A stretch of 64,000 nt of DNA from Escherichia coli (GTDB taxonomy: Bacteria > Pseudomonadota > Gammaproteobacteria > Enterobacterales > Enterobacteriaceae). A program made the translations under genes and the position numbers. Numbering within the stretch: the stretch's first letter is position 1; each line of letters begins with the position of its first letter. Where the stretch lies: the NCBI RefSeq assembly GCF_009931435.1, contig NZ_CP043414.1; one strand, 5' to 3'. The notes beneath the pieces were generated by a model. That model did no database searches and was not told where the DNA came from. It was given only the letters and a program-made list of their open reading frames with translations. Of this stretch, positions 50,857 to 63,514 are shown piece by piece.

Positions 50857-51813
50857 ATGAACCCGATTGCAGTTACCCTACTCACCGGTTTTTTAGGCGC
50901 AGGCAAAACCACCCTGCTGCGCCATATTCTTAATGAACAGCACGGCTACAAGATTGCCGTGATTGAAAACGAATTCGGCGAAGTCTCCGTTGATGATCAA
51001 CTGATTGGCGACCGCGCCACGCAGATCAAAACGCTGACCAACGGCTGCATCTGTTGTTCGCGCTCCAACGAGCTGGAGGACGCGCTACTCGACCTGCTGG
51101 ATAATCTCGACAAGGGCAATATTCAGTTCGATCGTCTGGTCATTGAATGCACCGGCATGGCCGATCCCGGCCCGATTATTCAGACCTTTTTCTCCCATGA
51201 GATTTTATGCCAGCGTTACCTGCTGGACGGCGTGATTGCGCTGGTGGATGCGGTACATGCCGATGAGCAGATGAACCAGTTCACCATCGCCCAGTCACAG
51301 GTTGGCTACGCCGACCGCATTCTGCTGACCAAAACCGACGTCGCAGGCGAAGCAGAAAAACTGCGTGAACGCCTGGCACGCATCAACGCCCGCGCACCGG
51401 TCTACACCGTCACCCACGGCGACATCGATCTGGGCCTGCTGTTCAACACCAACGGTTTTATGCTGGAAGAAAACGTCGTCAGCACCAAACCGCGTTTCCA
51501 CTTTATCGCGGATAAACAAAACGATATTTCGTCGATTGTGGTAGAACTGGATTACCCGGTAGATATCAGCGAAGTTTCCCGCGTGATGGAAAACCTGCTG
51601 CTGGAGTCGGCGGATAAACTGCTGCGTTACAAAGGGATGCTATGGATTGACGGCGAACCAAATCGCCTGCTGTTCCAGGGCGTCCAGCGCCTCTACAGCG
51701 CCGACTGGGACCGCCCGTGGGGCGATGAAAAACCGCATAGCACGATGGTGTTTATCGGGATTCAGCTGCCGGAGGAAGAGATTCGGGCTGCGTTTGCGGG
51801 GTTGAGGAAGTAA
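50857..51813 (+). CDS. yjiA: COG0523/CobW-family metal-binding GTPase YjiA
   Basis: Start placed at MNPIAVTLLTGFLGAGKTTLLRHIL... (318 aa); GCICCS metal-binding motif. Confidence 0.9.
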   Translation: MNPIAVTLLTGFLGAGKTTLLRHILNEQHGYKIAVIENEFGEVSVDDQLIGDRATQIKTLTNGCICCSRSNELEDALLDLLDNLDKGNIQFDRLVIECTGMADPGPIIQTFFSHEILCQRYLLDGVIALVDAVHADEQMNQFTIAQSQVGYADRILLTKTDVAGEAEKLRERLARINARAPVYTVTHGDIDLGLLFNTNGFMLEENVVSTKPRFHFIADKQNDISSIVVELDYPVDISEVSRVMENLLLESADKLLRYKGMLWIDGEPNRLLFQGVQRLYSADWDRPWGDEKPHSTMVFIGIQLPEEEIRAAFAGLRK

Positions 51814-51824
51814 AATTTCACATT

Positions 51825-51867
51825 TTTCTTAAGCCGGAAGATATATATACCCCACCGGCTTAAGAAA
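51825..51867. repeat. Inverted repeat at the convergent yjiA / accessory-operon junction
   Basis: TTTCTTAAGCCGG ... CCGGCTTAAGAAA (about 13-bp arms, 17-nt AT-rich spacer); no flanking U-tract on either strand. Confidence 0.4.
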
Positions 51868-51878
51868 GTGCAATTCTC

Positions 51879-52628
51879 TTATGAAACATCACGAAATACA
51901 CAGGTAAGTTCTTTAGGACTTGCTTTCCATATATGGTCAAAGCCACTCGACAGCATGACTTCTATTTTTCCTTCCGGACTTTCAATTAGTAAATAGCGAT
52001 CATGGCAGTTTGTATATTTGGGATTTGTAGTGATTTGCACACTCCATTCAGGATGGATACAATGAACAAAATTACTATTTATTTTACTTCCGTTTTGGAC
52101 TGCAGCGACACCTACTGCGATTTCTGAAAATTCAATAACAAGCTCTTTTCTAGGTAGTACGGAATGAAATAAGCTGCATGTATTCTCCCAATTCTGTGCA
52201 AAGTAATTATCGCATATAATTACTTTTTTTGCATTGCAACATAGCATTTCCAGATACTTTTTTAAATATATTCTATTATCTGTAGGGCTTAATGTAACGG
52301 TAACTTGATTATTAACCATACCTTTTTTATAATGTACAAAGGGAAGTGATAAATTATCATTCTCAGTAAGGATTATTTTCAACAACGATTTAGATGCTAA
52401 AGTAACAAGATCATCATCACTTTCAGGCTGACTTGCTAACATAGATAAATATTGTCGATATTCTAACTCCGGCATCTTCAATCCTAAATTTCTTGCCTCA
52501 ATCCATTGCCTTTTGTTAGTTAAATAAGGTAGTACTAGTTTTTTATGTAATCTCTTCACCTTATTCTTATCATCCATATTTTCATATGCAACTAATAAAG
52601 ATGTATCAAGAACCATTTGATAAGACAT
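51879..52628 (-). CDS. Hypothetical protein, no recognisable domain; third gene of the accessory operon (gene C)
   Basis: 249-aa ORF; ATG 4 nt after the ATPase stop with a GAGGT Shine-Dalgarno; AT-rich coding sequence. Confidence 0.6.
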   Translation of the reverse strand: MSYQMVLDTSLLVAYENMDDKNKVKRLHKKLVLPYLTNKRQWIEARNLGLKMPELEYRQYLSMLASQPESDDDLVTLASKSLLKIILTENDNLSLPFVHYKKGMVNNQVTVTLSPTDNRIYLKKYLEMLCCNAKKVIICDNYFAQNWENTCSLFHSVLPRKELVIEFSEIAVGVAAVQNGSKINSNFVHCIHPEWSVQITTNPKYTNCHDRYLLIESPEGKIEVMLSSGFDHIWKASPKELTCVFRDVS

Positions 52629-52632
52629 TTCT

Positions 52633-53682
52633 TTACCTCATCTTCATCAAATCATCTAAGGTTGCATCAAAAAAACCTAAAGGGAATCCCGTAACATTCT
52701 CTTGCAGATCGGTAAATTTCCCACCTTCATTAACTCTCATCGAGATAAAATCTTTATCCACATCAGGTTTATAATGTACAGAAATATCCTCAGAAGTTAT
52801 AACATCTTCATAAACCAAATACGCAAGTTTATTGATTAAATGTTCACAATGCGTTTCTACAATAATCTGGATACCCTTACTTGCTACAAATGCTAAAAAA
52901 ATTGCCAAATGAGACTGCGCTTTCGGATGCAATTGAATTTCGGGATTTTCTAGCAAAATAAGATCGCCTTTTTTTGCCATCAAACAAATAATCAAAACCT
53001 TTGCAATATAACTCATCCCAGCCCCAAGATTAAGAGGAGAAACATTTCCTTCAAGCTCTTTTAAGGTAAAAGCGACCTTAATCTGGTCACCAACTTTTTC
53101 AGTAACTAATTCAGACGTCGTTCCTGTAATCAGTTTCAACCAATAAGATAATTGATATGCAAGTGTTGTAGATTCGTGAACTTTCACCAGATATTCAGGT
53201 ACTGGCAAATGTTTCATTTTATCAAATGTTGAAAACAAGAATTCTCCTGCAACACCTACTCGACGTTCTGCGGTGGGCACAAATTCTTGTGCCCCCAAGC
53301 GGTTGGCATTCAGATAGAGCAACTCAGGTTCACTACCAGGCACTCTTGGCTCGTATTGATATCCCAGACGACTATCAATTTCGATATTTTCTGAGTTGAG
53401 CGTTAACGAATGAGAATTTTTTTCTGTATCCTGGACTGTTATAACAATAGATTTTGCGTTATTTTTTTTATTTCTAATAACAGGAAAATCAGCTAGAAAT
53501 CGGATAACTTCTTCCATACTATACTGATTAACAGAAGCGCTATTTTTAATTAGTAACATCAATGCCTGAATAACGCTGGATTTACCAGAAGAGTTAGTTC
53601 CAGTTAAAATGGTCAGTGGTGATAACACCAGACTTGTTGAGCCTAAACTTTTAAATCCTTGAATGTTAATATTTGTAAGCAT
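52633..53682 (-). CDS. ABC-type/AAA_21-like ATPase, second gene of the accessory operon (gene B)
   Basis: 349 aa; N-terminal MLTNINIQGFKSLGS... with Walker A GTNSSGKSS; C-terminal Walker B and H-loop (DLILLENPEIQLHP...IIVETHCEHL); start overlaps the upstream gene by 17 nt. Confidence 0.75.
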   Translation of the reverse strand: MLTNINIQGFKSLGSTSLVLSPLTILTGTNSSGKSSVIQALMLLIKNSASVNQYSMEEVIRFLADFPVIRNKKNNAKSIVITVQDTEKNSHSLTLNSENIEIDSRLGYQYEPRVPGSEPELLYLNANRLGAQEFVPTAERRVGVAGEFLFSTFDKMKHLPVPEYLVKVHESTTLAYQLSYWLKLITGTTSELVTEKVGDQIKVAFTLKELEGNVSPLNLGAGMSYIAKVLIICLMAKKGDLILLENPEIQLHPKAQSHLAIFLAFVASKGIQIIVETHCEHLINKLAYLVYEDVITSEDISVHYKPDVDKDFISMRVNEGGKFTDLQENVTGFPLGFFDATLDDLMKMR

Positions 53683-54796
53683 TTTTAATCCTTTCCATTA
53701 TTTCCTTCGCAAAATCAAAACGCATATTTACATATTGTGTTGTATCAATTGCACCAGAAAAAATACCAATCTCATCAAAATTATACTTGTATTGTTCAAT
53801 AAGCTGTTTTAATTCAATATTTTTTGATAAAAATTCAAAACTTATCTGACTGAATACCATAACTAACACTTCGAATAATCCCATATTCACTGGTCGCCTT
53901 TTAGCACCTGATTTTGTTGAAAATCTAAATGCTTCTGAACCCAACGCTTTATAGACATTAGTCATACCAGTTATACAAGCATCTTCAACTTCTTCCAGTA
54001 ACTCATCATCAGCTTTTGTATTAATGAATTTCATCGCAGATGCTAAAAAAGCATCAATATCAGACCTAAATTCAACACCTGGCATTTGATTTGTTACAAG
54101 CAAATAAAATCCTACGAACCGCAAAACCAGATATCTGTCTCGCATACGCTCAGATTTTACGCCATTACCTGTTGCAAGCCTGAAAGACTCGTGTTCAGCG
54201 AGATCCTTAATTAACTTTGTGGCCTTGCCTTGATAAAGAGCATGCCGCATTTCCTGTTTATTTAGATTAATACCACTTCGATTTACACGCTCAAAAATAT
54301 TAAATTTCACATATTCAGGTGTTGGGGGTTGAATCACATAAGAATGTAACTGGCAATCTTCAAGCTTTGCTTGTAATAATGGAGGAATATCAGAAAATTT
54401 TTTTCCTCTCAAGTCAGGCAACATAGATAAATCAGTTAAAGAAAATTCATTGTTAACATAGCGTTTCAATGCAGATATTCGTTGTTTGCCATCAATGATT
54501 TGCCTGACACCATTTTCATCCTCAAAAAGATAAATTAATGGAATAGGAATCCCCATTAAAATAGATTCAATTAATTCTGACTGGTGTTTTCTATCCCAGA
54601 CAAGTTTACGCTGAAAATCTGGAGCAAGAACCAGTTGCCCACGAGCTTCGCGACGGAGTAATTCGAAAACACTGGATTGCTCTTTTGCAATTCGAACCTC
54701 AGTATCTGTCCCCATTTGATGCGGATGAGATGTTAACTCAAGCTCTTCTTGATCTTCGAGTTCAATGCTGTCGTTTTCTACATCCGCATTACTCAT
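53666..54796 (-). CDS. DUF262 (ParB/sulfiredoxin-like NTPase, GmrS-type) domain protein, first gene of the accessory operon (gene A)
   Basis: 376 aa; acidic N-terminal tail then DUF262 motifs PDFQRKLVWDRKHQSELIESILMGIPIPLIYLF...IIDGKQRISAL and FNIFERVNRSGINLNKQEM; no DUF1524/HNH motif found. Confidence 0.75.
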   Translation of the reverse strand: MSNADVENDSIELEDQEELELTSHPHQMGTDTEVRIAKEQSSVFELLRREARGQLVLAPDFQRKLVWDRKHQSELIESILMGIPIPLIYLFEDENGVRQIIDGKQRISALKRYVNNEFSLTDLSMLPDLRGKKFSDIPPLLQAKLEDCQLHSYVIQPPTPEYVKFNIFERVNRSGINLNKQEMRHALYQGKATKLIKDLAEHESFRLATGNGVKSERMRDRYLVLRFVGFYLLVTNQMPGVEFRSDIDAFLASAMKFINTKADDELLEEVEDACITGMTNVYKALGSEAFRFSTKSGAKRRPVNMGLFEVLVMVFSQISFEFLSKNIELKQLIEQYKYNFDEIGIFSGAIDTTQYVNMRFDFAKEIMERIKNAYKY

Positions 54797-55036
54797 GGTA
54801 AAATTACCTTTAAAAATTTATCGAATTATTTATTCATAAAAATAGGGCGCTGAATCAAAATTTCAGCCCCTTAATCAACATGAATTATACCCTAACTTCC
54901 TTCTTGACTGCGACCTTCACTGCACCATTATGCGAGTTATCTCCAGAACATAATGCTCTCATACCGCCCTAAGTCATAGCCAGGCTATTGATTTTATGTA
55001 CAATCAGAATCGTCCTGATAAAAGCGAGAATACCCC

Positions 55037-57469
55037 ATGGCGGAACTGAACCTAAGTAACCTGACGGAAGCAGACATCATTACCAAATGCGTTATGCCAG
55101 CCATTCTCAATGCAGGCTGGGACAACACAACGCAAATCAGACAGGAGGTCAAACTCCGGGACGGTAAAGTCATCGTACGTGGTAAAGTTGCGGCACGCAG
55201 AACGGTAAAATCTGCTGACATCGTGCTGTATCACAAACCAGGCATTCCCTTAGCCGTGATTGAAGCAAAAGCCAACAAACATGAAATTGGCAAAGGGATG
55301 CAACAGGGCATTGAATATGCGCGCCTGCTGGACGTTCCTTTTGTTTTTGCCACCAACGGGGATGGCTTTATCTTCCGCGATGCCACCGCAGCCGAAGGTG
55401 AATGCCTTGAAAAGCAAATAACGCTGGATGACTTCCCCTCCCCCGCTGAACTCTGGCAAAAATTCTGCCTCTGGAAAGGATACACACAAGCTCAGCTTCC
55501 GGTGATTACTCAGGACTATTACGACGATGGCAGCGGTAAATCGCCACGTTATTACCAGCTTCAGGCAATCAACAAAACCATTGAAGCCGTCTCCAACGGG
55601 CAAAACCGCGTTCTGTTGGTCATGGCGACCGGAACAGGGAAAACCTATACCGCATTCCAGATCATCTGGCGCCTGTGGAAATCAAAAAATAAAAAACGCA
55701 TTCTGTTCCTTGCCGATCGCAACATTCTGGTCGACCAAACCAAAAATAATGATTTCCAGCCATTTGGTACGGCAATGACCAAAGTCAGCGGACGCACCAT
55801 TGATCCCGCTTATGAAATTCACCTCGCGCTCTATCAGGCTATAACTGGCCCGGAGGAAGACCAAAAAGCGTTTAAACAAGTCGCACCAGATTTCTTCGAT
55901 CTGATAGTCATCGACGAATGCCATCGCGGCAGCGCATCCGAAGACAGCGCCTGGCGAGAGATCCTTGATTATTTCAGTTCCGCCACCCAAATTGGCTTAA
56001 CCGCCACGCCAAAAGAGACGCATGAAGTCTCCAGCACGGATTACTTCGGCGATCCGGTTTACGTCTACTCGCTAAAAGAAGGGATCGAAGACGGCTTCCT
56101 CGCCCCTTATAAAGTTGTCCGTGTTGATATTGATGTTGATCTGCAAGGCTGGCGCCCAACCAAAGGGCAAACTGACTTAAACGGCGAAGTGATCGACGAT
56201 CGTATCTATAACCAGAAAGATTTCGATCGCACGATGGTAATCGACGAACGCACAGAACTGGTTGCCAGAACCATTACCGACTACCTCAAGCGCACCAATC
56301 CGATGGATAAAACCATCGTCTTCTGTAACGACATCGATCATGCAGAACGTATGCGCCGCGCCCTGGTTAATCTCAACTCGGAGCAGGTGAAAAAGAACGA
56401 CAAATACGTCATGAAAATCACCGGCGATGATGAAATTGGCAAAGCTCAGTTGGATAACTTCATCAACCCGAAAAAACCGTACCCGGTTATCGCGACCACT
56501 TCAGAGCTGATGACCACCGGTGTGGATGCTAAAACCTGCAAACTGGTAGTACTGGACCAGAACATCCAGTCGATGACCAAATTCAAGCAGATTATCGGTC
56601 GTGGTACACGCATCGACGAACGTTACGGCAAACTCTGGTTTACCATCCTCGACTTTAAAAAAGCCACCGAACTGTTTGCCGATGAGCGTTTCGATGGCAT
56701 TCCCGAAAAAGTCATGGATACCACACCAGAGGATATCACCGATCCAGAATCTGATTTTGAAGAGAAACTCGAAGAAATCAGCGAACATGACGACGAACAG
56801 GTAACGGGCGTTGATGAACCGCCTGCGCCACCATACCAGGTTACCGATACCGATGATGTCGGCCCACTTCCGGAAGAAGACGAGAAGAAAATCCGCAAGT
56901 TTCACGTCAACGGTGTCGCGGTGGGCGTTATTGCGCAGCGTGTTCAGTATTACGATGCCGACGGTAAACTGGTTACCGAATCTTTTAAAGATTACACCCG
57001 CAAAACACTGCTCAAAGAATATGCCTCGCTGGATGACTTTACCCGCAAGTGGCAGGACGCCGATCGCAAAGAAGCGATCATTCACGAGCTGGAGCAACAG
57101 GGGATCATCTGGGAAGTACTGGCAGAAGAAGTCGGTAAAGATCTCGACCCGTTCGACATGCTTTGCCACGTAGTGTATGGTCAGCCGCCGTTAACCCGCA
57201 AAGAGCGCGCCGAGAACGTGCGCAAGCGGAACTACTTCACAAAATACTCTGAAGCAGCGCAAGCCGTGCTCGATAATCTGCTGGATAAATACGCCGATGC
57301 GGGCGTACAGGAGATCGAAAGTATTCAGGTGCTGAAACTTAAACCATTCGACAGCATGGGCACTTTACCGGAGATTATTAAAACCGGATTTGGCGACCGT
57401 AACGGGTATAATCAGGCGCTCAGCGAGCTGGAAAACGAAATCTACCAATTACCGCCCCGCTCTGCTTAA
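55037..57469 (+). CDS. hsdR: Type I restriction enzyme R subunit HsdR (short, Type IB-like form)
   Basis: 810 aa; N-terminal PD-(D/E)xK nuclease region and SF2 helicase motifs [26 protein letters not shown]. Confidence 0.9.
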
Positions 57470-57483
57470 CAACTCTCTTTTGC

Positions 57484-57522
57484 GCCTTCTGCAACCATCA
57501 TGTTGCAGAAGGCCTTGTTTTT
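57484..57522 (+). terminator. Rho-independent terminator between hsdR and hsdM
   Basis: Perfect 12-bp stem GCCTTCTGCAAC / GTTGCAGAAGGC with a 6-nt loop, followed by CTTGTTTTTC. Confidence 0.55.
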
Positions 57523-57535
57523 CATGGAATACAAC

Positions 57536-59005
57536 ATGTCTATCAGCTCAGTAATCAAATCATTACAAGATATTATGCGCAAAGATGCCGGTGTGGATGG
57601 CGATGCGCAGCGTCTCGGTCAGCTCTCCTGGCTGCTGTTTTTGAAAATCTTCGATGCCCAGGAAGAGGCGCTGGAACTGGAGCAGGATAACTATCAATAT
57701 CCGATCCCACAGCGTTATTTGTGGCGCAGTTGGGCCGCCAACGCGCAGGGCATTACCGGTGATTCCCTGCTGGAATTCGTTAATGATGATCTGTTCCCGG
57801 CGTTGAAAAACCTCACTGCGCCTATCGATAAAAACCCACGCGGCTACGTGGTGAAGCAGGCGTTCAGCGATGCCTATAACTATATGAAAAACGGTACGCT
57901 ACTGCGTCAGGTGATCAACAAGCTGAACGAAATTGACTTTACCAGCGCCAGCGAACGCCATCTGTTTGGTGATATTTACGAACAGATCCTTAAAGATCTG
58001 CAATCTGCGGGCAATGCTGGCGAATTCTATACTCCACGCGCCGTCACTCGCTTTATGGTGGATCGCGTTGATCCGAAACTCGGCGAATCCATTATGGACC
58101 CGGCCTGCGGTACGGGCGGTTTTCTTGCCTGCGCATTTGATCATGTAAAGAACAAATACGTGAAGAGCGTCGCCGATCATCAGACTCTGCAACAACAGAT
58201 CCACGGTGTCGAGAAAAAACAGCTTCCGCACCTGCTGGCGACCACCAATATGCTGCTGCACGGCATTGAAGTACCGGTACAAATTCGTCACGACAACACC
58301 CTGAATAAACCGCTTTCCTCCTGGGATGAGCAACTGGATGTGATTGTTACCAACCCGCCATTTGGTGGCACGGAAGAAGACGGTATTGAGAAGAACTTTC
58401 CGGCAGAGATGCAAACCCGCGAAACGGCGGATCTGTTCCTGCAACTGATTGTGGAAGTACTGGCGAAAAACGGTCGCGCGGCGGTGGTATTGCCGGATGG
58501 CACACTATTTGGCGAAGGCGTTAAAACCAAAATCAAAAAACTGCTTACCGAAGAGTGCAACCTGCATACCATCGTGCGTTTACCGAATGGGGTGTTTAAC
58601 CCCTATACCGGCATTAAAACCAACCTGTTGTTCTTTACCAAAGGTCAGCCAACCAAAGAGATTTGGTTCTATGAGCATCCGTATCCGGCGGGCGTGAAAA
58701 ATTACAGTAAAACCAAGCCGATGAAGTTTGAAGAGTTTCAGGCGGAGATCGACTGGTGGGGGAACGAGGCCGATGGTTTTGCCAGCCGCGTCGAGAATGA
58801 GCAGGCGTGGAAAGTCAGCATTGATGACGTGATTGCGCGTAACTTCAATCTGGATATTAAAAACCCACATCAGGCGGAAACCGTTAGCCATGATCCGGAC
58901 GAGCTGTTAGCGCAGTATGCAAAGCAGCAGGCGGAGATCCAGACGCTGCGTAATCAACTGCGCGATATTCTTGGCGCTGCGCTGTCTGGCAAGGAGGTTA
59001 ACTGA
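57536..59005 (+). CDS. hsdM: Type I restriction-modification N6-adenine DNA methyltransferase HsdM
   Basis: SAM motif DPACGTGGFL and catalytic NPPFGG; start placed at MSISSVIKSLQDI... after the hairpin (the track ORF starts at 57500, inside the hairpin). Confidence 0.9.
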   Translation: MSISSVIKSLQDIMRKDAGVDGDAQRLGQLSWLLFLKIFDAQEEALELEQDNYQYPIPQRYLWRSWAANAQGITGDSLLEFVNDDLFPALKNLTAPIDKNPRGYVVKQAFSDAYNYMKNGTLLRQVINKLNEIDFTSASERHLFGDIYEQILKDLQSAGNAGEFYTPRAVTRFMVDRVDPKLGESIMDPACGTGGFLACAFDHVKNKYVKSVADHQTLQQQIHGVEKKQLPHLLATTNMLLHGIEVPVQIRHDNTLNKPLSSWDEQLDVIVTNPPFGGTEEDGIEKNFPAEMQTRETADLFLQLIVEVLAKNGRAAVVLPDGTLFGEGVKTKIKKLLTEECNLHTIVRLPNGVFNPYTGIKTNLLFFTKGQPTKEIWFYEHPYPAGVKNYSKTKPMKFEEFQAEIDWWGNEADGFASRVENEQAWKVSIDDVIARNFNLDIKNPHQAETVSHDPDELLAQYAKQQAEIQTLRNQLRDILGAALSGKEVN

Positions 59006-60753
59006 TGAGTGTGGAAAAGCTGATCGTTGATCATATGGAAACCTGGACCTCGGCGTTGCAAACCCGTTCCACCGCCGGGCGCGGCAGTTCCGGAAAAATT
59101 GATTTATATGGCATTAAGAAATTACGTGAGCTGATTCTGGAACTGGCTGTGCGCGGTAAACTGGTGCCGCAGGATCCGAATGATGAACCGGCGTCGGAGC
59201 TGCTGAAGCGTAATGAAGAACGGAAAAAAGAATTAGCGCGCAATAATGGTATGAAAACCACAGCAAGCACTAATATCCATGGAAATGAATATTATATCGA
59301 TACCCCCGAAAAGTGGTCATGGATAAGACTTGGTAATTTAGCTAAATTCATCGATTACCGAGGGAAAACACCACATAAAAAAGAAAATGGTATAAGGCTT
59401 ATAACAGCAAAAAATATCAGAAAGGGCTGTATTGATCTCAATCCAGAAGAATTCATATCTGAAGAAGATTACATATCATGGATGACAAGAGGCTTTCCTA
59501 AATGTGGTGATATTTTATTCACAACTGAAGCACCACTGGGGAATGCAGCGATTATTGATTTAGACGGAAAGTTCGCTCTTGCTCAACGTTCTATCTGTTT
59601 TCAATGGCATACTCCAGAGATAAGCCCTTTTATGCTTATTCAAATCCTGGCGATCCCCTTCCAGTCACAACTAAGTGACAAATCTACAGGCATGACCGCA
59701 ACAGGAATAAAAGCGTCTAAGTTAAAAGAGATCCCTGTTATTTTACCACCTTACCAAGAACAAATACGTATTGTATCCAAAGTACAGGAGTTCATGTCCC
59801 TATGTGACCAACTGGAACAGCAATCCCTGACCACTCTGGACGCACATCAGCAACTGGTTGAAACCCTGTTGGGAACGCTTACAGACAGCCAAAACGCCGA
59901 GGAACTGGCTGAAAACTGGGCGCGTATTAGCGAGCATTTCGACACCCTATTTACCACCGAAGCCAGCGTGGATGCGTTAAAACAGACCATTCTGCAACTG
60001 GCCGTAATGGGCAAACTTGTGCCGCATGATCCGAATGACGAACCAGCCTCTGAACTGCTCAAACGAATTGCGCAGGAAAAAGCTCAACTGGTGAAAGAAG
60101 GAAAAATAAAAAAACAAAAACCGTTGCCGCCGATTAGCGATGAGGAAAAACCTTTTGAACTGCCGGAAGGGTGGGAATGGATTAGACTAGGAAATATTGG
60201 TGAAGTTAAAGGGGGCGGAACCCCAAGTAAAAACAATCCTGATTTTTGGAAAGGTAATATTCCATGGGTTTCACCAAAGGATATGAAGGTTAATTACATC
60301 TCCAAAAGTCAACTAAATATTTCAAAAGAGGCTGTATTGGAGAGTTCAGTACATCTAATTCCTGAAAATAGTCTTATTTTTGTTGTCCGAGGCATGATTT
60401 TAGCCCATACATTCCCCGTAGCAATAACAAAAAAAGAAGTCACTATTAATCAAGATATGAAAGCCATATCAACTAATCAATTAAATACTGATTTTTTAAT
60501 TTACTTACTTAAAGCAAACGAGACTCGAGTAATATGCTTAGTTGACCGCTCCTCTCATGGCACATGTAAACTTGTTTCAGATAAACTTTTCAATTTGGTT
60601 TTACCGTTGCCTCCATTAGAAGAACAATTTCGTATTACAGAACGAATAAATATGCTATTAGCTTATTGTGATAGATTGAAAAATTATATAAATCTAAAAA
60701 AACAAACCCAACTGCACCTTGCAGATGCACTCACTGACGCGGCGATAAACTAA
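59005..60753 (+). CDS. hsdS: Type I restriction-modification specificity subunit HsdS
   Basis: 582 aa; ATG overlaps the hsdM stop (TGATG); two target-recognition domains, each preceded by a conserved repeat (LAVRGKLVPQDPNDEPASELLKR / LAVMGKLVPHDPNDEPASELLKR). Confidence 0.9.
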   Translation: MSVEKLIVDHMETWTSALQTRSTAGRGSSGKIDLYGIKKLRELILELAVRGKLVPQDPNDEPASELLKRNEERKKELARNNGMKTTASTNIHGNEYYIDTPEKWSWIRLGNLAKFIDYRGKTPHKKENGIRLITAKNIRKGCIDLNPEEFISEEDYISWMTRGFPKCGDILFTTEAPLGNAAIIDLDGKFALAQRSICFQWHTPEISPFMLIQILAIPFQSQLSDKSTGMTATGIKASKLKEIPVILPPYQEQIRIVSKVQEFMSLCDQLEQQSLTTLDAHQQLVETLLGTLTDSQNAEELAENWARISEHFDTLFTTEASVDALKQTILQLAVMGKLVPHDPNDEPASELLKRIAQEKAQLVKEGKIKKQKPLPPISDEEKPFELPEGWEWIRLGNIGEVKGGGTPSKNNPDFWKGNIPWVSPKDMKVNYISKSQLNISKEAVLESSVHLIPENSLIFVVRGMILAHTFPVAITKKEVTINQDMKAISTNQLNTDFLIYLLKANETRVICLVDRSSHGTCKLVSDKLFNLVLPLPPLEEQFRITERINMLLAYCDRLKNYINLKKQTQLHLADALTDAAIN

Positions 60754-60914: not shown

Positions 60915-61000
60915 ATGTGCGCCAACACACCCGCACCGCTCATCACAATCCCTATTTCACGAGAATAGTAATCATGACTGACACGCATTCTATTGCACAA
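60915..61000 (-). ncRNA. symR: Expected position of the SymR antisense sRNA (boundaries not determinable from sequence)
   Basis: Placed only by analogy: in K-12 SymR is encoded antisense to the symE 5' UTR and start codon; no independent sequence evidence. Confidence 0.25.
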
Positions 61001-61315
61001 CCGTTCGAAGCAGAAGTCTCCCCGGCAAATAACCGTCAATTAACCGTGAGTTATGCGAGCCGCTACCCGGATTACAGCCGTATTCCCGCCATCACTCTGA
61101 AAGGTCAGTGGCTGGAAACCGCCGGTTTTACCACCGGCACGGCGGTAGATGTCAAAGTGATGGAAGGCTGTATTGTCCTCACCGCCCAACCACCCGCCGC
61201 CGAGGAGAGCGAACTGATGCAGTCACTGCGCCAGGTGTGCAAACTGTCAGCGCGTAAACAGAAGCAGGTGCAGGAGTTTATTGGGGTGATTGCCGGTAAA
61301 CAGAAAGTCGCCTGA
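60974..61315 (+). CDS. symE: SOS-induced toxin-like protein SymE (AbrB/SpoVT fold)
   Basis: 113 aa [48 protein letters not shown]...; track ORF starts at an upstream Met (60917). Confidence 0.85.
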
Positions 61316-61361: not shown

Positions 61362-63110
61362 TTATACCAACGCGCTCTCCATCTGTTTTTCAAATGCCTG
61401 ACGGATTAATCCCATAATGTAAGGAAGTTGTGCGAGGTCGCTGAAACCAATTTCTACATCGCCATTGCCCCAGCGCCCAACATTTGTCACATCTTTGGCA
61501 ATACCTTTCGGATCGACCAGTTCATGAAACTGCATATTAAGCGACAATCGCAGTCGGCTTTTTTGCGGCACAACATCAACAAAATTCGTTTCCGCTTTAA
61601 ACGCAATATAGAGCTTCAATACTTCCTGCGTGATCCCTGCGTCCAGGCGCAAAACTTCATCGCTAAGATGATCGAATAACACCCGGCTATGCGAACCATC
61701 AGCAAGAAAAGGATAATCACTCAGGCTGTAACTGGTTTTGTTTTCCGGCTGCCCCCGATAAACAGCTAAAACCTCTTCAGGAAGAGAAGGCGCTTGCCAG
61801 ACCTGAACCGCGAGATCGGCCAGACGATCGGCTCGGGCGTGAATGGCAGCTTCATCCCATTTTTCGCACTGTCCAAGACCGATATTCAAATAAAGCGGGC
61901 TATGCTTAAAGCCGTCTTCAATATCGCGTTTTTCCGCGAAAGGTCTGTCACTGTAGCGGGAGTTATAGCGCGTTAAAGTGAGATTCCCCAACGTATGCAA
62001 CAATTCTTTATGAATACGCTGCCAGTCGCTTCCCAGCTCTTCGCGCCATTTAGCCGACAAATTTTCGTTCTGCGGCATAATGTGCTCAATCGTAAACTCT
62101 TCCACGCGCTCTCTGCGTTTATTGTTTTCCAGTCGTCGTAACCAGTAACTGCGACTGCGGAAGTTATAGAGATCGCGAACTTTTAATTCCCGTTTAAATT
62201 CATCATCGTTGGGGAAACGACGATATGAAGGTAGATTCAGAAAATGTACCTGAATACTTTCCAGATAATTTTCTTTATTAATAACTTTATAAAAAGTGGC
62301 AAACGTCTTGTTAAGAGAATTTGTTGGAATCGCACATACTGCACGGCGGAAAACATAAGATTCAATTAAACGAATTATGCTCAGGAAATCTTCACGAGAC
62401 AAAACGCCATTTTTATAGTCATGATAAAGCGCCAGTAAGAAAGGATACGCCACATCGACTTTTAACTCGCGCAAATCCTGAAAAGCCGTAGCAAGCGATT
62501 TGTCACTTTCTTTTCCCAATGCCATTGCACAGTAATACTCCGCGTAGATGTGAATATCTTCAACCAGCCGATCTACGCCTTTTTCAGCAACACTCTGGCT
62601 ACGGGCATGGAGTTTAAAAGCCTCATAGACTTCATCTGTCCGAGGGATCTCCCCCGTTTTTACCGTCAGATAATGACGCATAAAACTGTCAAAATATTCG
62701 CTGTAACCTTGCTGACCAAAGGCGACTTCCATGGGTCGCCAGTGATCTTCATACAACCGGGTTTGATGCTCTGGTTCGAGACCCATCAGAATAAAATTGC
62801 GCACCAGATCGGCCTGACTTAACGCCTTACCGGTGGAGTTCATACTTTCAAAAATCAGTTGCGGATTATCCTGACCACGATTAAGCGCCACATCGACAAT
62901 TAATAACTTTGCTAACCCACGACATAAGGGGATCAAGTCATCACCGAGTTTGGCAATTTGTTCATCAAAGAAAGTAAAGTTTTCCATTATTCGATGGGAA
63001 TAGTTTTCTGGCATTGGTCTTTGTTTTATTAACGCCAGCAAACTGTCTTTATCAGTCTCGGTAAGCAGTAATTTAAATCCTTTCTCGCCGGACTCATAAG
63101 GATTGAGCAA
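61362..63110 (-). CDS. GmrSD-family (DUF262 C-terminal part + DUF1524 His-Me finger) protein lacking the N-terminal DGQQR core; possibly the yjiT-equivalent locus
   Basis: 582-aa ORF with a TTG start right after an in-frame stop; DUF262 distal motif IFESMNSTGKALSQADLVRNFILMG; DUF1524 motif EHIMPQNENLSAKW...LHTLGNLTLTRYNSRYSD; only 64 bp separate it from yjiS. Confidence 0.7.
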   Translation of the reverse strand: MLNPYESGEKGFKLLLTETDKDSLLALIKQRPMPENYSHRIMENFTFFDEQIAKLGDDLIPLCRGLAKLLIVDVALNRGQDNPQLIFESMNSTGKALSQADLVRNFILMGLEPEHQTRLYEDHWRPMEVAFGQQGYSEYFDSFMRHYLTVKTGEIPRTDEVYEAFKLHARSQSVAEKGVDRLVEDIHIYAEYYCAMALGKESDKSLATAFQDLRELKVDVAYPFLLALYHDYKNGVLSREDFLSIIRLIESYVFRRAVCAIPTNSLNKTFATFYKVINKENYLESIQVHFLNLPSYRRFPNDDEFKRELKVRDLYNFRSRSYWLRRLENNKRRERVEEFTIEHIMPQNENLSAKWREELGSDWQRIHKELLHTLGNLTLTRYNSRYSDRPFAEKRDIEDGFKHSPLYLNIGLGQCEKWDEAAIHARADRLADLAVQVWQAPSLPEEVLAVYRGQPENKTSYSLSDYPFLADGSHSRVLFDHLSDEVLRLDAGITQEVLKLYIAFKAETNFVDVVPQKSRLRLSLNMQFHELVDPKGIAKDVTNVGRWGNGDVEIGFSDLAQLPYIMGLIRQAFEKQMESALV

Positions 63111-63173: not shown

Positions 63174-63338
63174 TCACTCCACATCCTCCCTGCGTAACCC
63201 AATATCCCTCAACCGTTCATCACTCATCTGCTGTAACACGCGTCGGGTCTGCATTTGCCGCCGCCAACGCCTCACCGCCTGCCAGAGTTGCACCAGGCCG
63301 ATAAACGGCGCTTTAGCTCTGTTTTCGTGAAATTCCAT
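63174..63338 (-). CDS. yjiS: DUF1127 small protein YjiS
   Basis: 54-aa ORF MEFHENRAKAPFIGLVQLWQAVRRWRRQMQTRRVLQQMSDERLRDIGLRREDVE; below the 60-aa cut-off of the ORF track. Confidence 0.75.
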   Translation of the reverse strand: MEFHENRAKAPFIGLVQLWQAVRRWRRQMQTRRVLQQMSDERLRDIGLRREDVE

Positions 63339-63514
63339 CTGCTGCCTCCTCATCTTTCAGAGGCTTCATCATCCGTCTTCTGGCAGTTCATAATACAGAT
63401 GCAAATATTACTTTTATTTAACATACAGACAGGTTAAAACAACATCTGCATCCGGTTTTTTAGCCTCATCTGTACCGGTTTTTCTCTCTGTATGGTCCAC
63501 ATAAGGAATACAGC

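What the first reader, a model, noticed from the sequence alone, without database searches (positions are those of the whole stretch)
52633..53682. Gene B: minimal ABC-type ATPase translationally coupled to the DUF262 gene
Its start codon lies 17 nt inside the end of gene A, implying coupled translation and a fixed stoichiometry. The protein has Walker A at residues ~28-35 and Walker B plus H-loop near residue 250-275, with a short insert between them (smaller than OLD or Gabija-GajA-type proteins and without a TOPRIM domain). Such stripped-down ATPases often act as the switch in two- or three-component abortive-infection systems.
Basis: partly seen in the sequence, partly recalled or inferred. 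Interest (0 to 1): 0.55.

Follow-up and report, generated by a model that had tools for sequence, protein, structure and literature searches.

The report
NsnB ATPase of a Menshen system
Gene B is a real, intact small ABC-type ATPase, but it is the already-described middle gene (NsnB) of the three-gene Menshen anti-phage system, here sitting in a well-known defence hotspot of an E. coli chromosome, so the finding is correct but ordinary.

Summary
Window 52633..53682 (-) encodes a 349-aa ABC ATPase whose ATG lies 17 nt inside the upstream DUF262 gene. It has Walker A at residues 28-35, Walker B at 241-246, an H-loop at H278 and no TOPRIM domain.

It is not an orphan. All three co-directional genes match the PADLOC Menshen models over their full length: NsnA 2e-110, NsnB 1.5e-78, NsnC 2.2e-71.

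The 3.15-kb, 35% GC cassette lies between yjiA and a type IB hsdR in E. coli. None of 5,426 complete E. coli genomes carries it, but Salmonella has it in the same slot. Other genera carry the same A-B-C cassette, with an 8- or 17-nt A/B overlap, in unrelated contexts.

The likely role of NsnB is an ATP-driven transducer between the NsnA DNA sensor and the NsnC nuclease. That role comes from published predictions and is not shown here. Verdict: a known system, of low interest.

The parts
53666..54796 (-). nsnA: 376-aa ParB-like DUF262 (GmrSD_N) protein with a C-terminal ParBDB-type region and no extra N-terminal domain (Type I Menshen). Predicted DNA sensor and NTPase.
   Evidence: PADLOC NsnA 2e-110 covers residues 8-371 against model positions 21-383 of 385. 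Motifs QRKLVW at 62, DGKQR at 102 and FERVN at 168. Pfam PF03235 is recorded on the identical gene in L001.
52633..53682 (-). nsnB (the finding): 349-aa ABC-type ATPase (AAA_15/OLD-ABC class) with a DUF3696-like C-terminal helix and no nuclease domain.
   Evidence: PADLOC NsnB 1.5e-78 covers 1-348 against 1-342 of 345. Pfam finds AAA_15, AAA_21 and SMC_N. AF2 pLDDT is 90.9. Foldseek best matches are PtuA, SMC head, Rad50 and OLD.
53666..53682 (-). 17-nt overlap of the nsnA stop with the nsnB start (ATGCTTACAAATATTAA). Probable translational coupling.
   Evidence: The overlap is 8 or 17 nt in E. coli, Salmonella, Yersinia, Endozoicomonas, Aliivibrio and Serratia.
53578..53601 (-). NsnB Walker A, GTNSSGKS, residues 28-35.
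   Evidence: G28, N30, S31, G33, K34 and S35 are invariant in 64 homologues.
53017..53025 (-). NsnB GAG (residues 220-222), the GxG that replaces the ABC signature SGG.
   Evidence: G220 and G222 are invariant. The GxG feature is described for NsnB in PMC12065111.
52945..52962 (-). NsnB Walker B, LILLEN, residues 241-246. It has 'EN' where ABC ATPases have 'DE', so the catalytic Glu position is Asn.
   Evidence: N246, P247 and E248 are invariant and E245 is conserved in at least 90% of sequences. The same substitution is described for the validated S. silvestris NsnB.
52849..52857 (-). NsnB H-loop, ETH, residues 276-278.
   Evidence: E276 and H278 are invariant.
52636..52689 (-). NsnB C-terminal tail, GFPLGFFDATLDDLMKMR, residues 332-349. 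A DUF3696-like helix and the predicted docking site for the NsnC N-terminal domain.
   Evidence: The AF2 model has a helix at 340-348 with low pLDDT. F337 and L345 are invariant; F333, P334, G336, F338 and D339 are conserved in at least 90%. The Pfam DUF3696 hit is weak (E=2.2). Homologues are annotated as DUF3696. The docking role is a published AF3 prediction.
51879..52628 (-). nsnC: 249-aa predicted effector, with an N-terminal inactive PIN-like domain and a C-terminal PLD-like (PB-PLD1 type) nuclease domain.
51996..52004 (-). NsnC HDR motif (H209, D210, R211), the predicted PLD-like catalytic centre, together with D140.
   Evidence: H209, D210, R211 and D140 are invariant in 56 homologues. 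The HDR motif plus an acidic residue after beta-2 defines PB-PLD1 in PMC12065111.
51814..54962 (.). Variable, low-GC (0.32-0.37) 3,149-bp cassette that carries the whole Menshen operon between core yjiA and the type IB hsdR.
   Evidence: Homology to the Menshen-less E. coli SCZE5 ends at 51813 and resumes at 54963.
51828..51864 (.). Perfect 10-bp inverted repeat CTTAAGCCGG...CCGGCTTAAG with a 17-nt loop, between the convergent yjiA and nsnC stops. Possibly a terminator.
   Evidence: Read directly from the sequence. The terminator scan did not report it because the loop exceeds 8 nt. Function is inferred only.

Best explanation
Gene B is nsnB, the ABC-ATPase component of a Type I Menshen (NsnA-NsnB-NsnC) anti-phage operon. 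The operon is carried on a horizontally acquired 3.15-kb low-GC cassette in the yjiA-hsdR defence hotspot of an E. coli chromosome.

Identity is tested here, with confidence about 0.95.

The proposed working is inferred from published predictions and from analogy with Septu, PARIS and Gabija, with confidence about 0.5. The steps are:
1. NsnA, a ParB-like DUF262 NTPase with a DNA-binding domain, recognises invading phage DNA.
2. This signal changes the nucleotide state of NsnB. NsnB probably forms an ATP-dependent head-to-head dimer or tetramer.
3. NsnB holds the inactive-PIN domain of NsnC between its conserved C-terminal DUF3696 tails.
4. ATP binding or hydrolysis by NsnB then activates or releases NsnC.
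5. The PLD-like domain of NsnC (D140, H209-D210-R211) cuts nucleic acid and stops the infection.

The A/B gene overlap and the 4-nt B/C gap keep the three proteins co-expressed. The natural Asn at the catalytic-Glu position of Walker B suggests slow hydrolysis, meaning a switch rather than a motor.
For: Identity:
- All three genes hit the PADLOC Menshen HMMs over their full length.
- NsnB has every motif described for the validated S. silvestris NsnB: GxxxxGKS, hhhhEN, Arg for the Q-loop (R128), GxG, the H-loop and the C-terminal helix. All are conserved across 64 homologues of 43-100% identity.
- NsnA has the QRxxxW, DGxQR and FxxxN motifs.

A self-contained module:
- The A-B-C order, protein sizes, A/B overlap of 8 or 17 nt and B/C gap of 2-8 nt are kept in six genera in unrelated surroundings: next to an integrase, after BREX brxL, or standing alone.
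- Relatives also occur on plasmids, and distant ones on two Vibrio phages.
- dN/dS is 0.03-0.09.

Defence context:
- The slot is bordered by a type IB R-M system, and a GmrSD-like gene lies nearby.
- In another E. coli strain the same slot holds a DUF262/HNH gene.

Mechanism:
- The NsnB fold is closest to PtuA (Septu and retron Eco7), SMC and Rad50 heads, and OLD.
- Literature: Menshen from S. silvestris protects against phages, and loss of the DUF262 gene abolishes protection (PMC10952713).
- Menshen proteins form higher-order complexes in mass photometry (bioRxiv 10.1101/2025.07.10.664194).
- AF3 predicts NsnB4-NsnC2 via the DUF3696 tails in 23 of 24 systems (PMC12065111).
Against: - No experiment exists on this locus or on any PLD-type Menshen.
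- The sensor-transducer-effector order is a published hypothesis. How NsnA talks to NsnB is unknown, and AF3 found no A-B complex.
- The Pfam DUF3696 hit on the tail is not significant (E=2.2), and the tail is modelled with low confidence.
- I could not run a multimer prediction for these proteins.
- MIT_C, the best structural match of NsnC-C, is not a proven nuclease. The substrate (DNA or RNA) is therefore open.
- The operon is 35% GC in a 50% GC enterobacterial host. It may be poorly expressed or silenced; this is an inference and was not tested.
Confidence: 0.8

Rival explanations
1. NsnB is itself the DNA-engaging element. It would be an SMC/Rad50-like ATP-gated head dimer that clamps phage DNA after being loaded or stimulated by the ParB-like NsnA, as ParB loads SMC. 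NsnC would then act on whatever is clamped. In this view NsnB is a sensor or clamp, not a relay.
For: SMC and Rad50 heads are among the best structural matches, and Pfam gives an SMC_N hit. Li et al. raise the ParB-SMC/ParA analogy. Asn at the catalytic Glu position resembles the EQ mutants that trap engaged SMC or ABC heads; that comparison rests on established knowledge, not a test here.
Against: NsnB lacks any coiled coil or known DNA-binding insertion. The most conserved surface outside the ATP site is the C-terminal tail, which is predicted to bind NsnC rather than DNA. No A-B complex is predicted.
Confidence: 0.12
2. The ATPase operon is an accessory of the adjacent type IB restriction-modification system, comparable to PrrC or RloC-type genes embedded in hsd loci, and not an autonomous system.
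For: The operon lies divergently, 240 bp from an EcoAI-family hsdR, in both E. coli and Salmonella. About 28% of Menshen loci neighbour BREX, R-M systems or methylases, and a link to methylation status has been speculated.
Against: The same cassette occurs without any R-M neighbour in Serratia, Aliivibrio and Yersinia. 970 E. coli genomes carry this hsdR without Menshen. The cassette has a sharply different GC content from the hsd genes. The S. silvestris Menshen works alone when transplanted, according to the literature.
Confidence: 0.04
3. Gene B is a degenerate OLD-family or Gabija GajA-type, or PARIS AriA-type, ATPase whose canonical nuclease partner has been lost or split off.
For: Secondary PADLOC hits are AriA 1.7e-27, Old 1e-15 and GajA 5e-14. 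The best sequence match among solved structures is an OLD nuclease, 6p74, at 3.6e-13.
Against: These hits cover only the Walker A and Walker B segments and are 50 or more orders of magnitude weaker than the NsnB hit. There is no TOPRIM domain in B. No GajB, AriB or PtuB homologue is in the operon: C matches only NsnC and folds as PIN + PLD.
Confidence: 0.02

Closest known systems
Menshen system NsnB (Solibacillus silvestris StLB046 NsnABC; Millman et al. 2022; dissected by Li et al. 2025, PMC12065111). Specifically the Type I variant with an inPIN + PB-PLD1 NsnC.
   Same: Three-gene order A-B-C. DUF262/ParBDB NsnA with all three motifs. NsnB with Walker A, an 'EN' Walker B, Arg in the Q-loop, a GxG signature, the H-loop and a DUF3696-like tail. 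NsnC with an inactive PIN domain plus an effector domain. Neighbourhood of type I R-M and BREX systems. Full-length HMM matches for all three proteins.
   Different: The validated S. silvestris NsnC carries a BECR RNase-type effector (PB-BECR1), whereas this one carries the PLD-like PB-PLD1 type. That variant is catalogued but untested. The host here is E. coli, and the cassette is absent from all 5,426 complete RefSeq E. coli genomes searched.
Septu PtuA / retron Eco7 (Ec78) PtuA ABC ATPase
   Same: These are the best structural matches (Foldseek E about 1e-11). Each is an ABC ATPase that holds and regulates a separate nuclease between the C-terminal regions of an ATPase dimer.
   Different: PtuA is about 550 aa with a long helical insertion, and its partner is the HNH nuclease PtuB. 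Sequence identity is only 12-15%. There is no DUF262 partner.
PARIS AriA
   Same: This is the second-best PADLOC hit (1.7e-27). It is an AAA_15 ATPase scaffold that sequesters a nuclease effector and releases it on a phage trigger.
   Different: Its partner AriB is a DUF4435/TOPRIM protein. The trigger is the phage Ocr protein sensed by AriA itself. PARIS is a two-gene system.
Gabija GajA / class 1-2 OLD nucleases
   Same: The same OLD-type ABC ATPase class. A GajA-like tetramer is predicted for NsnB in the literature.
   Different: GajA and OLD proteins carry a fused C-terminal TOPRIM nuclease and are about 580-630 aa. NsnB has none.
GmrSD / SspE / BrxU (DUF262-DUF1524 enzymes) and PD-T4-2
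   Same: The partner gene A shares the DUF262 NTPase sensor domain (PD-T4-2_A 6.4e-32, SspE 1e-4).
   Different: In those proteins the nuclease (DUF1524) is fused to DUF262 and no ABC ATPase intervenes.

Membership tests
Menshen (NsnABC) | Three adjacent co-directional genes in the order NsnA (DUF262), NsnB (ABC ATPase), NsnC (effector) | tested here: met
   The genes are 54796..53666, 53682..52633 and 52628..51879, all on the minus strand, with a 17-nt overlap and a 4-nt gap. Each is the best full-length PADLOC hit: NsnA 2e-110, NsnB 1.5e-78, NsnC 2.2e-71.
Menshen (NsnABC) | NsnA: ParB-DUF262 with QRxxxW, DGxQR and FxxxN motifs, plus a C-terminal ParBDB domain | tested here: met
   QRKLVW at 62, DGKQR at 102 and FERVN at 168. 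The HMM alignment spans residues 8-371, so it includes the C-terminal region. The ParBDB fold was not modelled separately.
Menshen (NsnABC) | NsnB: OLD-type ABC ATPase with Walker A GxxxxGKS, Walker B hhhhEN, Arg replacing the Q-loop Gln, GxG replacing SGG, and an H-loop His | tested here: met
   GTNSSGKS at 28-35, LILLEN at 241-246, R128, GAG at 220-222 and H278. These residues are invariant in 64 homologues, except E245 at 90% or more. The ABC fold is confirmed by the AF2 model at pLDDT 90.9 and Foldseek matches to PtuA, SMC and Rad50.
Menshen (NsnABC) | NsnB: C-terminal DUF3696 helix | tested here: inconclusive
   A C-terminal helix at 340-348 is present, and the preceding FPxGFFDATL is highly conserved. 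However, the Pfam DUF3696 hit has E=2.2. Homologues at 51% identity (P0088), and plasmid homologues, do carry the PF12476/DUF3696 annotation.
Menshen (NsnABC) | NsnC: N-terminal inactive PIN-like domain plus a C-terminal effector domain (here PB-PLD1: an acidic residue after beta-2 and an HDR motif) | tested here: met
Menshen (NsnABC) | Confers resistance to phage infection | not testable with these tools
   This is known only for the S. silvestris system, from the literature. It needs plaque assays with this cassette.
OLD family / Gabija GajA | C-terminal TOPRIM nuclease domain fused to the ABC ATPase | tested here: not met
   Pfam finds no TOPRIM hit. The protein ends about 70 residues after the H-loop. 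GajA and Old HMMs match only the Walker A and B segments.
Gabija | GajB UvrD-like helicase partner | tested here: not met
   The neighbouring genes are DUF262 (A) and PIN+PLD (C). Neither gives a helicase hit.
PARIS (AriA-AriB) | AriB (DUF4435/TOPRIM) effector encoded next to the ATPase | tested here: not met
   Gene C matches only NsnC in PADLOC and has a PLD-like rather than TOPRIM fold. The AriA hit is 50 orders of magnitude weaker than the NsnB hit.
Septu (PtuA-PtuB) | HNH nuclease PtuB partner and the NCBIfam PtuA equivalog score | tested here: not met
   NCBIfam PtuA scores 17.8 bits against a cut-off of 500. There is no HNH gene in the operon.

The most novel reading that the evidence does not exclude
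The invariant Asn at the catalytic-glutamate position of Walker B (LILLE-N) would make NsnB a naturally hydrolysis-impaired ABC ATPase. It would work as an ATP-occupancy latch. NsnC would be held inactive while ATP is bound and released when phage infection (or NsnA NTPase activity on phage DNA) lowers the local nucleotide level. Menshen would then be a nucleotide-level-sensing system like Gabija, not a hydrolysis-driven relay. This E. coli-native, PLD-armed version would cut DNA rather than the RNA proposed for most Menshen systems.
Probability: 0.12. Interest if true: 0.5.

Novelty: already known. Interest (0 to 1): 0.15.

Why it matters
It matters little for discovery. Standard defence-annotation tools built on the PADLOC models matched here would label this locus Menshen. 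The exact protein is already in NCBI as an E. coli 'AAA family ATPase'. The domain variant (Type I, inPIN + PB-PLD1) is catalogued in Li et al. 2025.

Some value remains. The Menshen mechanism is still experimentally unresolved, and this is a compact E. coli-native copy with a PLD-like rather than BECR effector, in a well-understood hotspot (yjiA-hsdR). It would be a convenient model for testing how a DUF262 sensor, an ABC-ATPase switch with a natural 'EN' Walker B, and a nuclease communicate. It also illustrates cassette swapping in the enterobacterial immigration control region: different strains place Menshen or a GmrSD-like DUF262/HNH gene in the same slot.

Tried and rejected
- Megablast of the operon against 5,426 complete E. 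coli genomes found no match. The cassette is rare in E. coli, and no annotated E. coli reference was available.
- NCBIfam has no family for NsnA or NsnC, and only sub-threshold ABC hits for NsnB.
- The promoter and terminator consensus scan of 51700..55100 gave counts no better than shuffles. No promoter claim is made.
- The supplementary tables of Li et al. 2025 are not held. I could not check whether this exact locus is among their 1,997 systems.
- The 2022 preprint of Millman et al. does not contain the name 'Menshen'. Experimental facts about the founding system are therefore cited second-hand from PMC12065111 and PMC10952713.
- A literature search for newer mechanistic Menshen work found only the 2025 NAR paper and a 2025 preprint with mass photometry.
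- A profile search of solved structures found no NsnB structure.
- Readings considered and rejected: a GajA/OLD orthologue (no TOPRIM), PARIS or Septu membership (wrong partners), an accessory of the neighbouring type IB R-M system (the cassette occurs without it elsewhere), and a PD-T4-2 system (NsnA scores 2e-110 against 6e-32, and the B and C genes are Nsn-specific).

Full report
**1. What is in the sequence**

The finding's coordinates delimit a minus-strand ORF, 53682..52633, with an ATG start, encoding 349 aa. Gene A, upstream, is 54796..53666 (376 aa). Its last codons and B's first codons share the 17 nt ATGCTTACAAATATTAA, and an AAAGGA Shine-Dalgarno-like motif lies 8 nt before B's ATG.

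It follows 4 nt after B's stop, and a GAGG motif lies inside the end of B.

The motifs in B are as follows:
- Walker A: GTNSSGKS, residues 28-35.
- Signature-like motif: GAG, residues 220-222.
- Walker B: LILLEN, residues 241-246.
- H-loop: ETH, residues 276-278.

Pfam reports AAA_15 (both halves), AAA_21, SMC_N and DUF2813, and no TOPRIM or other nuclease domain. Only the stated position of Walker B and the H-loop ('250-275') is a little off.

**2. What it is**

All three proteins match the PADLOC models of the Menshen anti-phage system end to end:

| Protein | PADLOC model | E-value | Residues matched | Model positions |
|---|---|---|---|---|
| A | NsnA | 2e-110 | 8-371 | 21-383 of 385 |
| B | NsnB | 1.5e-78 | 1-348 | 1-342 of 345 |
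| C | NsnC | 2.2e-71 | 1-248 | 1-241 of 242 |

The next-best hits for B are AriA at 1.7e-27, with Old and GajA at about 1e-14 to 1e-15. These cover only the Walker A and Walker B segments.

Li et al. 2025 (PMC12065111) describe the founding Solibacillus silvestris NsnB as an OLD-type ABC ATPase. In it, the Walker B 'DE' is replaced by 'EN', the Q-loop Gln by Arg and the SGG signature by GxG, and a C-terminal DUF3696 helix follows. Gene B has each of these features.

In an alignment of 64 homologues of 43-100% identity, the following are invariant:
- G28, N30, S31, G33, K34 and S35
- R128
- G220 and G222
- N246, P247 and E248
- E276 and H278
- F337 and L345

E245 and the tail motif FPxGFFD are conserved in at least 90% of sequences.

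The AlphaFold2 model of NsnB (pLDDT 90.9, pTM 0.91) is a compact ABC head that ends in a short helix at 340-348. Its best matches among solved structures are PtuA of Septu and of retron Eco7/Ec78, SMC heads, Rad50 and an OLD nuclease. No NsnB structure exists in the PDB by sequence.

NsnA carries the three DUF262 motifs: QRKLVW at 62, DGKQR at 102 and FERVN at 168. It has only an acidic N-terminal loop of about 40 residues. The system is therefore 'Type I' in the sense of Li et al..

D140 and H209-D210-R211 are invariant in 56 homologues. No acidic residue is conserved in residues 1-115. This reproduces the published description of an inactive PIN domain plus a 'PB-PLD1' effector almost number for number.

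**3. Context**

The flanks are E. coli chromosome. The btsT-yjiX-yjiA stretch is 95-99% identical to 5,381 complete E. coli genomes, with the best matches at 98.9-99.0%.

Downstream of the cassette lie several other defence-related genes:
- An EcoAI-family type IB hsdR-hsdM-hsdS (55037..60753).
- symE.
- An apparently N-terminally truncated GmrSD-like gene.
- yjiS.

This is the classical enterobacterial immigration control region; that label comes from my own knowledge.

The Menshen operon is 32-36% GC in a 50% GC window. Homology to a Menshen-less E. coli strain (SCZE5) stops exactly at the yjiA stop codon (51813) and resumes at 54963, which is 74 nt before the hsdR start codon. In that strain the slot holds a split DUF262/HNH gene instead.

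None of the 5,426 complete RefSeq E. coli genomes has the operon at megablast sensitivity. An identical NsnB protein (the operon DNA differs at 1 of 2,918 nt) is in NCBI as an E. coli 'AAA family ATPase', and it appears in one short-read assembly with the same neighbours. Hochhauser et al. 2023 list Menshen among the systems they identified in E. coli genomes.

**4. Is the cassette a unit?**

Orthologues of 46-86% identity occur in Salmonella, Serratia, Yersinia, Endozoicomonas and Aliivibrio. They keep the same A (373-383 aa), B (348-349 aa), C (248-258 aa) order. The A/B overlap is 8 or 17 nt, the B/C gap is 2-8 nt, and GC is low (0.33-0.40) whatever the host GC (0.39-0.65).

Their surroundings are unrelated:

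| Genus | Context of the cassette |
|---|---|
| Salmonella | The same yjiA-hsdR slot |
| Yersinia | Beside an integrase |
| Endozoicomonas | Directly after BREX brxL |
| Serratia | Alone among metabolic genes |
| Aliivibrio | Alone among metabolic genes |

Homologues also sit on Klebsiella, Campylobacter and other plasmids, always abutting a DUF262 gene. Distant homologues occur on two Vibrio phages.

dN/dS against Salmonella, Serratia and Yersinia is 0.03-0.09 for the comparable gene pairs. dS is saturated, so these ratios are approximate. The genes are therefore functional, mobile and inherited together.

**5. How it most likely works**

Shown in the literature, not here:
- The S. silvestris Menshen protects against phages, and this needs the DUF262 gene.
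- Menshen proteins form higher-order complexes in mass photometry.

Predicted in the literature:
- NsnB forms a GajA-like homotetramer.
- Pairs of DUF3696 tails clamp the NsnC inactive-PIN domain. AF3 gives this arrangement in 23 of 24 systems.
- NsnA is not predicted to bind either partner stably.

Tested here: this locus has all the parts that model needs, including the highly conserved tail and an intact PLD-like catalytic set.

Inferred:
1. NsnA senses phage DNA.
2. This alters the ATP state of NsnB.
3. NsnB activates or releases NsnC.
4. NsnC cleaves nucleic acid.

The invariant Asn at the catalytic-Glu position suggests slow hydrolysis and switch-like behaviour. This is an inference from the general behaviour of E-to-Q ABC mutants.

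I put identity as NsnB of Menshen at about 0.95 and the relay mechanism at about 0.5.

**6. Rivals**

- **NsnB as an SMC/Rad50-like DNA clamp loaded by the ParB-like NsnA.** This is not excluded (about 0.12). It lacks support from any DNA-binding feature.
- **An accessory role for the neighbouring type IB R-M system.** This is unlikely (about 0.04). The cassette travels without R-M elsewhere, and 970 E. coli genomes carry this hsdR without it.
- **Membership of the OLD/Gabija, PARIS or Septu families.** This fails on their defining partners and domains.

**7. Verdict**

The object is the known NsnB of a known, catalogued Menshen variant. Novelty: already known. Interest: low (0.15). The residual value is that this is an E. 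coli-native, PLD-armed Menshen copy that could serve as a model for a system whose mechanism is still unproven.

Noticed in passing
window 61362..63110 (-): A 582-aa ORF lies between symE (60917..61315, +) and yjiS (63174..63353, -). It matches PADLOC Orf5/HEC-06 (GmrSD-like DUF262-DUF1524) only from model position 104 of 543. The N-terminal DUF262 motifs therefore seem to be missing. Its C-terminal residues 476-573 match PDC-S18. It may be a truncated or remodelled type IV restriction gene.
   Followed up: no
window 51814..54962 versus L011 3078..5000: The slot between yjiA and the EcoAI-family hsdR is a swap site. This window holds Menshen. E. coli SCZE5 holds a split DUF262 (94 aa) plus HNH endonuclease family (452 aa) gene at the same breakpoints. 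Salmonella has Menshen in the same slot, aligning in blocks of about 81-83% nucleotide identity.
   Followed up: partly
window 55037..60753 (+): A complete type IB (EcoAI/FtnUII family) hsdR-hsdM-hsdS lies divergent from nsnA. The variable cassette ends only 74 nt upstream of the hsdR ATG. The hsdR promoter region may therefore differ between strains with different slot contents.
   Followed up: no
window 54849..54867 (-): A terminator-like hairpin, GCTGAAATTTTGATTCAGC followed by a T-run, sits in the nsnA leader between a TATAAT (about 54890) and the nsnA ATG (54796). The number of such sites in the region is no higher than in shuffled sequence, so it may be chance.
   Followed up: no
window 51879..52628 (-): The NCBI E. 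coli entries for NsnC are 226 aa (P0121), 23 residues shorter than the 249-aa ORF. The longer start is supported by 249-aa homologues in other genera and by the full-length PADLOC NsnC alignment. The public annotation probably uses a wrong start.
   Followed up: partly
L001-L010 and window 51879..54796: The Menshen cassette keeps a low GC content (0.33-0.40) in hosts ranging from 0.39 to 0.65 GC. This would fit recent spread or a constraint on composition. In enterobacteria it raises the untested possibility of H-NS silencing.
   Followed up: no
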